In this document: piece by piece, positions 35,285-35,703 of the stretch | How positions within the stretch are numbered: the first letter of the stretch is position 1 | Layout: the number at the start of each line of letters is the position of its first letter | Origin: Escherichia coli | Lineage (GTDB): Bacteria > Pseudomonadota > Gammaproteobacteria > Enterobacterales > Enterobacteriaceae | Length of the DNA stretch: 64,000 nucleotides | Direction: 5' to 3' (one strand) | Assembly (NCBI RefSeq): GCF_009931435.1 | Contig: NZ_CP043414.1 | The notes under the pieces: generated by a model | What the model was told of the DNA's origin: nothing | What the model saw: the letters and a program-made list of their open reading frames with translations, nothing else | Database searches by the model: none | Translations under genes and position numbers: made by a program

Positions 35285-35305
35285 GATAAATGGTGTCCCC
35301 TGCAG
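35285..35305. repeat. attR-like direct repeat of the argW 3' end
   Basis: gataaatggtgtcccctgcag is identical to 38963..38983 (the 3' acceptor end of argW plus 6 flanking nt). Confidence 0.75.
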
Positions 35306-35378
35306 ACATCTACTTGAGGCGGCAGGGGATTGATTGGAATGGTGTTTTTTAGATGTGAGAAATATTTTACCCGCTATT

Positions 35379-35579
35379 TTACCCATTGGCGCGGCTTAAG
35401 AGCTTATTTTTGAATTCACAATGGTCACGATATAACCATCTTGCTCGCCCGTGGATAACTTTGGCTTTTGGCAGGTCGCCGGACTTAATCCGGTCATAGA
35501 TGAAGGTTTTACCGAAGCCAGTATCGGCCATGATGAATTTCAAATCAACCAGTGAATCAGGTTGTAGTTCGTGTTGCAT
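35379..35579 (-). CDS. torI: Excisionase / AlpA-like winged-helix protein (TorI-like)
   Basis: 66 aa; AlpA/Xis-type pattern (LVDLKFIMADTGFGKTFIYDRIKSGDLPKAKVIHGRARW); sits at the prophage extremity opposite the integrase, as described for KplE1 torI. Confidence 0.6.
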   Translation of the reverse strand: MQHELQPDSLVDLKFIMADTGFGKTFIYDRIKSGDLPKAKVIHGRARWLYRDHCEFKNKLLSRANG

Positions 35580-35598
35580 GAGTGCTATCTCCGAATAG

Positions 35599-35614
35599 GG
35601 AATCGAACCTGCAA
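35599..35614. repeat. argW T-arm-like fragment upstream of torI
   Basis: ggaatcgaacctgcaa is identical to 38983..38998 within argW; with 35285..35305 it reconstitutes the contiguous tRNA 3' half, split by the torI segment. Confidence 0.5.
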
Positions 35615-35703
35615 ATCAGGCAATAAAAAACCGCATTGATGCGGCAATGGTAGGTCTGGATATCTTGAGAAATGAACGGGCCTCATCGAGTGTGAGGCTG
35701 TGG

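What the first reader, a model, noticed from the sequence alone, without database searches (positions are those of the whole stretch)
35285..35620. torI is bracketed by two pieces that together reconstitute the 3' half of argW
On the minus strand the order is a T-arm-like segment (ATTTGCAGGTTCGATTCC, 17/18 identical to argW), then an SD and torI, then the acceptor-end segment CTGCAGGGGACACCA plus 6 flanking nt. In the real tRNA these two segments are contiguous. So either a ~290-bp torI cassette sits inside a second partial copy of argW, or the attR region holds nested att cores of different lengths from successive integrations. Either reading points to a history not evident from gene content alone.
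Basis: seen in the sequence. Interest (0 to 1): 0.45.

Follow-up and report, generated by a model that had tools for sequence, protein, structure and literature searches.

The report
Standard prophage end with tRNA-like motif
The two argW-like pieces around torI are real, but they are the normal right end of a well-known family of argW-integrating phages (the same in E. coli K-12 and in free phages HK620 and Sf6), so they record nothing special about this strain; the only mildly new point is that the left piece is a strongly conserved tRNA T-loop-like motif in front of the excisionase gene whose function is untested.

Summary
Observation confirmed. On the minus strand ATTTGCAGGTTCGATTCC (35616-35599; 16/16 exact over 35614-35599) precedes torI (35579-35379). 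The 16-nt core CTGCAGGGGACACCAT (35305-35290) follows it. In argW (39043-38969) the two pieces abut with a 1-nt overlap; here 293 bp separate them. This is not chance.

The arrangement is not specific to this window. It is base-for-base the same in K-12 KplE1/CPS-53, in the virion genomes of HK620 and Sf6, and in 76 IMG/VR contigs. The right piece is the attR core. Removing the 3.68 kb between the two cores in silico gives an empty argW site found contiguously in 1,421 E. coli genomes.

The left piece travels with the phage excisionase gene. GGTTCGATT is invariant 16-25 nt upstream of the xis start in ten diverged TorI-type modules from other enterobacterial genera and from an Erwinia phage. 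It is more conserved than any stretch of the xis coding sequence. Salmonella phage g341c keeps GTTCGATTCCC. In several other genera the core-side copy also reaches into the T-loop (TTCGATgtaTGCAGG). This points to two overlapping partial tRNA copies rather than one copy split by torI.

The motif lies outside the 135-bp attR that supports excision in vitro. Its likeliest role is a tRNA-derived cis-regulatory or protein-binding site for torI expression; this is untested.

The parts
38969..39043 (-). argW, tRNA-Arg(CCU); its 3' end is rebuilt by the phage-derived core (attL)
   Evidence: ARAGORN; sequence
38968..38983 (-). attL copy of the 16-nt core CTGCAGGGGACACCAT
   Evidence: core as defined for KplE1 in PMC2951348
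38780..38967 (-). attL P' arm. It holds five TorI-type sites (GTTCG at 38961, GTCCG at 38941, GTTCG at 38898 and 38888, GATCG at 38878), GGGTAAAA/TTTACCC repeats, and the intS promoter region
   Evidence: for positions; site definitions from PMC2951348
38325..38807 (-). intS pseudogene (internal stop, 3' part missing); the remnant cannot supply its own integrase
   Evidence: RefSeq annotation of the 100% identical strain 2013C-4282, mapped to the window
35630..35645 (-). Intrinsic terminator hairpin GCCGCATCAATGCGGT plus a T-run at the end of the upstream early-left gene. This is the mosaic boundary shared with HK022/HK97/lambda-type phages
35599..35616 (-). T-arm-like element ATTTGCAGGTTCGATTCC. 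The cross-genus invariant core GGTTCGATT is 35609-35601. In the HK620 GenBank record this stretch is annotated as a 'phage integration' promoter with a cII box TTGCctgatTTGC
35589..35592 (-). Shine-Dalgarno GGAG of torI, at a near-constant 3-7 nt (usually 5) after the element across most modules
35379..35579 (-). torI (66 aa), the excisionase (RDF) of the KplE1/HK620/Sf6 module. The protein accession is the same as in K-12 (WP_001163428.1)
35306..35378 (-). Functional attR P arm, with GGGTAAAA x2 at the torI stop. The distance from the xis stop to TGCAGG is exactly 74 nt in all 20 TorI-type modules where the core was located
   Evidence: the 135-bp attR used for in vitro excision starts inside the 3' end of torI (PMC3509656; mapped)
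35285..35305 (-). attR core (16 nt, 35290-35305) plus 5 further nt (TTATC) that happen to be shared between the phage P' arm and the native argW flank of this lineage

Best explanation
The region is the ordinary right end (attR) of a degraded KplE1/CPS-53-type prophage of the HK620/Sf6 family, integrated in argW. The acceptor-end piece is the 16-nt crossover core: the original 3' end of argW, displaced 3.68 kb by integration. This part is shown. The T-arm-like piece is not a scar made at this locus. It is part of the phage's own integration module. It sits at the module's left edge, right after an intrinsic terminator and 19 nt before the torI start, and it enters the chromosome with the phage. 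This part is also shown. Its core GGTTCGATT is under strong purifying selection across enterobacterial modules, and its match to argW (16/16 in E. coli, 15/15 with a perfect T hairpin in Serratia) shows tRNA ancestry. Both points are shown by comparison. Inferred: it is a tRNA-derived cis element controlling torI expression, most likely a protein-binding site. Candidate binders are TorI itself (the motif contains GTTCG, the core of the mapped TorI sites) or IntS (the motif equals the tRNA-side core-type half-site GATTCC next to the presumed 7-bp overlap TGCAGGG). In E. coli phages its 5' part may also supply the second TTGC of a cII-type box. It is not needed for excision in vitro. My probabilities: ordinary inherited module structure 0.9; element functional 0.75; binder is TorI or IntS 0.4.
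For: The sequence is identical in K-12, HK620, Sf6 and in all 76 IMG/VR TorI loci where the start was located. Megablast finds the torI region in 1,686 of 5,426 E. coli genomes. The in-silico empty site is present contiguously in 1,421 genomes, at 100% identity in all 12 rows listed. There are only two cores in the window. The element is present upstream of xis in Citrobacter, Pantoea x2, Edwardsiella, an Erwinia phage (two tandem copies), Serratia, Hafnia, Cedecea, a MAG, and Salmonella phage g341c, whose Xis is only distantly related. Sequences upstream of the element are unrelated in these loci. GGTTCGATT is an invariant 9-nt run. The longest invariant run inside xis is 7 nt, 15% of third-codon columns are invariant, and third-position pairwise identity is 0.57. 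The TorI sites are GTTCG/GATCG/GTCCG (PMC2951348). The E. coli attP core reads GATGTC|TGCAGGG|GACACC, an inverted repeat. In vitro excision works with a 135-bp attR that begins 197 bp downstream of the element (PMC3509656; mapped). PtorI is described as 'non-characterized' (PMC2951348).
Against: No binding or expression data exist for the element. All mapped TorI sites have a pyrimidine after GTTCG, while the element invariably has A. A single site is unlike the cooperative arrays on attL. The element is absent from TorI-type modules in Klebsiella, Cronobacter, Mixta, Rahnella and Tatumella, and from the Proteus locus, where xis abuts the upstream gene. It is therefore dispensable for recombination and for xis expression as such. 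No sigma-70-like promoter is detected in 35200-36300. I could not read the primary mapping papers (JBC 2007, Virology 2010, PNAS 2013), so the element may already be described there.
Confidence: 0.8

Rival explanations
1. One partial argW copy (T-arm to CCA) was split by insertion of a ~290-bp torI cassette in the ancestor of the module.
For: The two pieces are on the same strand, in tRNA order, and tile the tRNA with only a 1-3 nt overlap: E. coli ...GATTCC / CTGCAGG..., Serratia ...CCTG / TGCAGG.... One genome (strain E10) carries the two pieces fused as GATTCCCTATTCGG|GACACCA with torI gone.
Against: In at least 6 other genera the core-side copy continues leftward as TTCGATgtaTGCAGG (6/9 further matches to the T-loop). 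The copies therefore overlap by about 12 nt, which a single split copy cannot give. The E10 fusion is unique among 5,426 genomes and absent from IMG/VR. Strains 6883 and 97_3250 have the same phage-island array with torI intact, so E10 is a secondary deletion, not an ancestral state. No mechanism is known for a precise xis insertion.
Confidence: 0.12
2. There are two nested or overlapping att-type tRNA copies left by successive integration or capture events, either (a) at this chromosomal locus or (b) in the distant ancestor of the phage module.
For: There are two partial tRNA copies of different extent. Tandem phage-island arrays do form at argW (E10, 6883, 97_3250). The stretch after the T-arm piece shows weak similarity to the acceptor end (GGAGAnA against GGGGACA, with ...ACC-ATG at the xis start in several genera).
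Against: (a) is excluded. The arrangement is present in free phage DNA and in K-12, there are only two cores in the window, and the empty site is clean. (b) cannot be tested: the similarity beyond the T-arm is about 8/16 with a gap, which is not significant. An old scar also would not stay invariant while xis third positions fell to 57% identity, unless it had been co-opted for a function.
Confidence: 0.25
3. The left piece is simply the cII-activated 'integration' promoter (pI) annotated in HK620 and Sf6, and its tRNA likeness is incidental.
For: The HK620 and Sf6 GenBank features place a promoter and a cII box on exactly this stretch. In HK022 and lambda-type prophages the same terminator is followed at the same position by the lambda pI box TTGCgtgtaaTTGC.
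Against: The box here is TTGC-N5-TTGC, not N6. The TTGC repeats are missing outside E. coli, Citrobacter and the MAG, while GGTTCGATT stays invariant. No -10/-35 match was found. A promoter upstream of xis would make Xis during lysogenization. A 16/16 match to the adjacent stretch of the very tRNA used for integration is not incidental.
Confidence: 0.2
4. The element acts as RNA: a T-arm mimic in the torI leader, serving as a processing or enzyme-recognition site or as an SD-sequestering hairpin.
For: There is a perfect T hairpin in Serratia, Pantoea stewartii and Edwardsiella. UUCG(A) can pair with (U/C)CGGA of the SD region in all modules.
Against: T-stem pairing is not maintained in E. coli, Citrobacter, Hafnia, Cedecea, the Erwinia phage or g341c. 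There is no Rfam match. The folding z-score is only -1.84, mostly from the terminator. The SD hairpin is 4-5 bp and shows no covariation.
Confidence: 0.05
5. The T-arm match is within chance for a generic conserved T-loop.
For: The invariant part (GGTTCGATTCC) is the generic T-loop consensus shared by many tRNAs.
Against: The E. coli match also covers the argW-specific T-stem and variable-loop bases (16 exact). 0.06 matches are expected at up to 2 mismatches in 64 kb. It lies about 300 bp from the argW-derived core, on the same strand and in tRNA order.
Confidence: 0.01

Closest known systems
KplE1 (CPS-53) defective prophage of E. coli K-12, attR/torI end
   Same: The TorI protein is identical (WP_001163428.1). 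The 16-nt core is identical. The T-arm-like element, SD and leader are identical. The spacing from the torI stop to the core is the same. argW-intS is at the other end.
   Different: The remnant here is only 3.68 kb. intS is a pseudogene, and a LysR regulator plus a PACE efflux gene lie inside. The upstream early-left genes differ (hyp55 + hyp114 instead of yfdT). The flank beyond attR is the csc sucrose locus rather than dsdC, which gives 21 nt instead of 16 nt of attL/attR identity.
attP regions of phages HK620 and Sf6 (Lederbergvirus), with attP between xis and int
   Same: The order is the same: terminator, T-arm-like element, xis (hkaC/gp18, 97-98% DNA identity), core, P' arm, int. This shows the 'split' is a property of the phage attP region.
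   Different: Those are intact, contiguous attP sites in virion DNA. In the window the site is recombined into attL and attR.
Lambda/HK022 pI region (cII box TTGC-N6-TTGC at the start of xis)
   Same: It occupies the same position directly after the same terminator, and the first TTGC is shared.
   Different: The spacing is N5 rather than N6. The second TTGC lies inside the tRNA-like stretch. attP lies between xis and int, so the regulatory logic differs.
Partial tRNA copies at attR of tRNA-integrating elements (general phenomenon; established knowledge, Reiter 1989 and Williams 2002, cited from memory)
   Same: The core-side piece is exactly this: the displaced tRNA 3' end.
   Different: The upstream T-arm piece is on the phage side of xis, about 300 bp from the crossover and outside the functional attR. 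The usual mechanism does not explain it.

Membership tests
KplE1/HK620/Sf6 argW recombination module | Element bounded by a duplicated 16-nt core CTGCAGGGGACACCAT, one copy forming the 3' end of argW | tested here: met
   Exactly two copies, at 38968-38983 and 35290-35305; definition in PMC2951348
KplE1/HK620/Sf6 argW recombination module | RDF TorI (66 aa) encoded at the attR end, reading toward the core | tested here: met
   ORF 35579-35379; same RefSeq protein as K-12
KplE1/HK620/Sf6 argW recombination module | intS next to argW in the same orientation, with its promoter inside attL | tested here: inconclusive
   The attL arm is intact, but intS is annotated as a truncated pseudogene with an internal stop in the identical strain
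KplE1/HK620/Sf6 argW recombination module | Five TorI sites (GTTCG/GTCCG/GATCG) on attL and IntS arm-type repeats on both arms | tested here: met
   Motifs at 38961, 38941, 38898, 38888 and 38878; GGGTAAAA repeats read; site definitions in PMC2951348. Tested by sequence only, not by binding.
KplE1/HK620/Sf6 argW recombination module | Clean insertion at attB (an empty site exists) | tested here: met
   The in-silico excision product is contiguous in 1,421 genomes
KplE1/HK620/Sf6 argW recombination module | TorI + IntS + IHF-dependent excision | not testable with these tools
   Needs an in vivo or in vitro assay; IntS would have to be supplied in trans
tRNA gene or tRNA pseudogene (for the T-arm-like piece) | Recognisable cloverleaf or partial tRNA model match | tested here: not met
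   ARAGORN finds only argW; no Rfam hit in 35150-35800 even at E<=10; the T-stem 3' strand is not complementary in E. coli
cII-dependent promoter (lambda pI/pRE type) | TTGC-N6-TTGC straddling the -35 region, with a downstream -10 | tested here: not met
   The spacing is N5; no promoter-like hexamers; the repeats are not conserved outside E. coli-like modules
TorI (RDF) binding site | GTTCG-type pentamer followed by a pyrimidine, in phased arrays | tested here: inconclusive
   GTTCG is present at 35608, but it is followed by an invariant A and is a single copy (two copies in the Erwinia phage)

The most novel reading that the evidence does not exclude
A fragment of the target tRNA gene (the T-loop, GGTTCGATTCC) has been co-opted inside the phage as an operator or pseudo-att half-site in front of the excisionase gene. 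Through it IntS or TorI could feed back on torI expression. Occasionally it could recombine with the true core to pop out torI as a ~293-bp circle; the E10 fusion GATTCCC-TATTCGG|GACACC, with its junction at the edge of the presumed 7-bp overlap TGCAGGG, would be one such product. That would lock a prophage in place.
Probability: 0.25. Interest if true: 0.45.

Novelty: already known. Interest (0 to 1): 0.2.

Why it matters
For this window it matters little. The arrangement is the reference arrangement of a well-studied recombination module and says nothing new about the strain's history. The useful points for annotation are these:
- The remnant is a clean 3.68-kb insertion at the argW core.
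- It has lost its own integrase but keeps torI. TorI is both an excisionase and an inhibitor of the TorR response regulator.

The by-product is a small, testable lead for people working on KplE1/HK620 regulation. The promoter and control of torI are described as uncharacterised. The most conserved non-coding stretch of the whole module is a tRNA T-loop copy 19 nt upstream of torI. It lies outside the attR fragment used in all the in vitro work I could read.

Tried and rejected
- **Chance match:** rejected.
- **Locus-specific nested integrations:** rejected.
- **E10 as an ancestral unsplit state:** rejected. The junction is unique among 5,426 genomes and absent from IMG/VR, and sister arrays keep torI.
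- **RNA T-arm mimic or known RNA family:** the stems are not conserved, there is no Rfam hit, and the folding z-score is weak.
- **Long-range pairing of GGUUCG with CGAAC in torI codons 3-4:** not conserved in other genera.
- **Sigma-70 promoter at the element:** none found.
- **IMG/VR scan for diverse relatives:** it returned only 100%-identical E. coli-type TorI loci. These were useful for the mosaic boundary but not for diversity.
- **Primary literature on attR mapping, torI transcription and tRNA sublocations:** JBC 2007, PNAS 2013 and Williams NAR 2002 are not held. I did not attempt to retrieve Virology 2010. I therefore cannot exclude that the T-arm likeness has been noted before.
- **IHF, DnaA or TorR-box matches to the element:** considered by eye; nothing convincing.

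Full report
**1. What is in the sequence**

Read on the minus strand, the order is:
- the end of a 114-aa early-left gene (stop at 35704);
- an intrinsic terminator hairpin with a T-run (35645-35630);
- ATTTGCAGGTTCGATTCC (35616-35599);
- the SD GGAG (35592-35589);
- torI (35579-35379);
- a 73-nt arm carrying two GGGTAAAA repeats;
- the core CTGCAGGGGACACCAT (35305-35290), followed by TTATC.

The only tRNA in the window is argW (39043-38969, anticodon CCT). Its 3' half is AATTGCAGGTTCGATTCCTGCAGGGGACACCA. The left piece therefore matches 17/18, with 16 exact. The right piece is the last 15 nt of the tRNA plus one flanking T. In argW the two pieces abut with a 1-nt overlap; at torI they are 293 bp apart. 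The exact 16-mer and the exact core each occur only twice in the 64 kb, once in argW and once here. Shuffles predict 0.06 and 0.03 matches even with two mismatches allowed.

**2. Where the window comes from**

The region is 100% identical to E. coli 2013C-4282. Its annotation gives, in order: yfdC; argW; an intS pseudogene; a pyrophosphohydrolase pseudogene; a LysR regulator; a PACE efflux gene; two small phage genes; torI; then cscB-cscK-cscA-cscR and dsdA. This is a 3.68-kb remnant of a KplE1/CPS-53-type prophage at the variable argW-dsd locus, next to the csc sucrose genes. The literature places csc there (PMC3032704).

I joined the argW side directly to the sequence after the attR core. 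The joined sequence is found contiguously in 1,421 E. coli genomes, at 100% identity in all 12 rows listed. The remnant is therefore a clean insertion at the core. The sequence TTTATCC... is the native flank of argW in this lineage. The phage P' arm begins TTTATCA, which is why attL and attR share 21 nt here and only 16 nt in K-12.

**3. The arrangement is the standard one**

K-12 MG1655 has the same ...tattacctgATTTGCAGGTTCGATTCCctattcggagatagcactcATG...torI...gtagatgtCTGCAGGGGACACCAT. So do the virion genomes of HK620 and Sf6, where the core is followed by the P' arm and int. So do all 76 IMG/VR contigs encoding identical TorI in which the start could be located. The 'split' is thus a property of the phage attP region (T-arm-like element, xis, core, P' arm, int) and is imported on integration.

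The second condition, chance, is not met.

The literature read here describes:
- the 16-nt core;
- five TorI sites with a GTTCG/GATCG/GTCCG core on attL;
- IntS arm-type sites;
- a 'non-characterized PtorI promoter' (PMC2951348).

In vitro excision uses a 135-bp attR whose left primer lies in the last codons of torI (PMC3509656). Mapped on K-12, that fragment begins 197 bp downstream of the T-arm-like element. The element is therefore not needed for excision in vitro.

**4. What the left piece is**

I sampled TorI-type modules from other taxa in two ways: a scan of one genome per species, and contig look-ups for diverse TorI homologues.

*Where the element is present.* A motif (C)AGGTTCGATTCC(C) lies 16-25 nt upstream of the xis ATG, usually 5 nt before GGAG, in these modules:
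- Citrobacter;
- two Pantoea;
- Edwardsiella;
- Serratia;
- Hafnia;
- Cedecea;
- a MAG;
- Erwinia phage Midgardsormr38, which has two tandem copies 16 nt apart;
- Salmonella phage g341c, whose Xis is only distantly related.

Sequence upstream of the motif is unrelated among these loci.

*How conserved it is.* In ten TorI-type modules GGTTCGATT is an invariant 9-nt run. The longest invariant run inside xis is 7 nt. Only 15% of third-codon columns are invariant, and third-position pairwise identity is 0.57. The element is thus the most conserved stretch of the region and is under selection.

*tRNA ancestry.* In Serratia the element reads CAGGTTCGATTCCTG, 15/15 identical to argW with a perfect T hairpin. 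This confirms tRNA ancestry.

*Where it is absent.* The element is absent from TorI-type modules of Klebsiella, Cronobacter, Mixta, Rahnella and Tatumella, and from the Proteus locus, where int faces the other way. In several of these xis abuts or overlaps the preceding gene. It therefore behaves as an optional intergenic control element and not as part of the recombination machinery.

**5. One split copy or two copies?**

In many non-E. coli modules the sequence left of the core is aTTCGATgtaTGCAGG. The tRNA reads gTTCGATtccTGCAGG. The core-side copy therefore itself runs into the T-loop and overlaps the upstream element by about 12 nt. That favours two partial tRNA copies of different extent over a single copy interrupted by torI.

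In E. coli the core reads GATGTC|TGCAGGG|GACACC. This is an inverted repeat around 7 bp, which suggests that TGCAGGG is the overlap region and that GATTCC is the tRNA-side half-site. This is an inference, not a test. The upstream element ends in exactly that half-site.

How the second copy arose cannot be recovered with these data. Possibilities are capture of a tandem array, integration through a secondary site, or duplication. Whatever it was, it predates the divergence of these modules.

**6. Candidate functions**

- **TorI operator.** The element contains GTTCG. The real T-arm GTTCG on attL lies 31 nt from site I1, and the I-site spacings are 20, 43, 10 and 10 nt. However, every mapped site has a pyrimidine after GTTCG, the element has an invariant A, and it is a single copy.
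- **IntS core-type half-site or pseudo-att site.** The support is the inverted-repeat inference in section 5.
- **cII-dependent pI.** This is how GenBank annotates the stretch in HK620 and Sf6. HK022 and lambda-type prophages have the lambda pI box TTGCgtgtaaTTGC at the same place after the same terminator. Here, though, the spacing is N5. The TTGC repeats are not conserved across genera, and no -10/-35 is detected.
- **RNA T-arm mimic.** The stems are not conserved, there is no Rfam hit, and the folding z-score is -1.84.

I rank a tRNA-derived protein-binding control site for torI first. In E. coli phages a cII box may overlap its 5' part. None of this has been tested.

**7. A natural variant**

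Strain E10 has argW, intS, a P22-like remnant, then ...GGTTCGATTCCCTATTCGG|GACACCAtgcacacc, then a second (island) integrase of 396 aa. torI is missing from the whole genome. Strains 6883 and 97_3250 carry the same phage-island array with torI intact. The E10 junction is unique among 5,426 genomes and absent from IMG/VR. E10 is therefore a secondary 293-bp deletion.

Its junction falls at the right edge of the presumed overlap. It leaves the pieces in near-tRNA register, with one extra C. This is compatible with a rare integrase-mediated event between the inner site and the core. It is equally compatible with a 2-nt microhomology deletion.

**8. Verdict**

The finding is real but ordinary. It is the reference structure of a known module, present in K-12, and it tells nothing specific about this strain. 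The residual interest is the strongly conserved T-loop-like element in front of the excisionase gene. I could not find it described in the papers available to me, and simple binding and reporter assays would test it.

Noticed in passing
L003 3019-3050 / L004 ~20019-20050 (E. coli strain E10, NZ_CM143887.1): There is a unique 293-bp deletion of torI that fuses the T-arm-like element to the core (GATTCCCTATTCGG|GACACCA). It is directly followed by a second, island-type integrase (396 aa) and a defence-gene island. The junction coincides with the edge of the presumed 7-bp overlap TGCAGGG.
   Followed up: partly
window 36386-37832: A LysR-family regulator (36948-37832, + strand) and a PACE multidrug/biocide efflux gene (36386-36844, - strand) sit inside the prophage remnant, between the intS/pyrophosphohydrolase pseudogenes and the phage early-left genes. 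This looks like cargo or a replacement inside a decayed prophage.
   Followed up: no
L007 1985-2016 (Erwinia phage Midgardsormr38): The T-loop-like element is tandemly duplicated (CAGGTTCGATTCCCGT CAGGTTCGATTCCCAC, 16-nt period) just upstream of xis. This looks like a pair of protein-binding sites.
   Followed up: no
L013, L014, L105, L007, L110, L012 (left of the attR/attP core): In several genera the P-arm side of the core reads aTTCGATgtaTGCAGG. attP/attB similarity therefore extends into the tRNA T-loop beyond the published 16-nt core. In E. coli the core forms the inverted repeat GATGTC|TGCAGGG|GACACC.
   Followed up: partly
all 20 TorI-type loci where the core was located: The distance from the xis stop codon to TGCAGG of the core is exactly 74 nt in every TorI-type module from about a dozen genera (91 nt in g341c). 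This indicates a rigidly constrained P-arm architecture.
   Followed up: no
window 38992 against 38961/38941/38898/38888/38878: The GTTCG of the genuine argW T-loop lies 31 nt upstream of TorI site I1. The spacings between sites I1 to I5 are 20, 43, 10 and 10 nt. The tRNA's own T-loop may act as an extra TorI site on attL/attB.
   Followed up: no
window 36067-36086 and 35630-35645 (- strand): There are two successive intrinsic terminators with the same T-run/ATTG tail bracketing the 114-aa gene (35704-36048). IMG/VR phages have either the 55-aa gene or the 114-aa-type gene directly before the element. The terminator tail acts as the mosaic junction.
   Followed up: partly
L012 (JAEWEJ010000341.1, 5-kb contig labelled 'MAG: Actinomycetes bacterium'): The contig carries an enterobacterial-type TorI (85% identity), the T-loop-like element and an argW-type core. 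This is probably a mis-binned or contaminant contig.
   Followed up: no
H72/H73 (strains 6883 and 97_3250): These are tandem arrays at argW: a KplE1-type phage ending in torI and the core, directly followed by an island with its own integrase. The phage attR core is reused as the island's attL.
   Followed up: no
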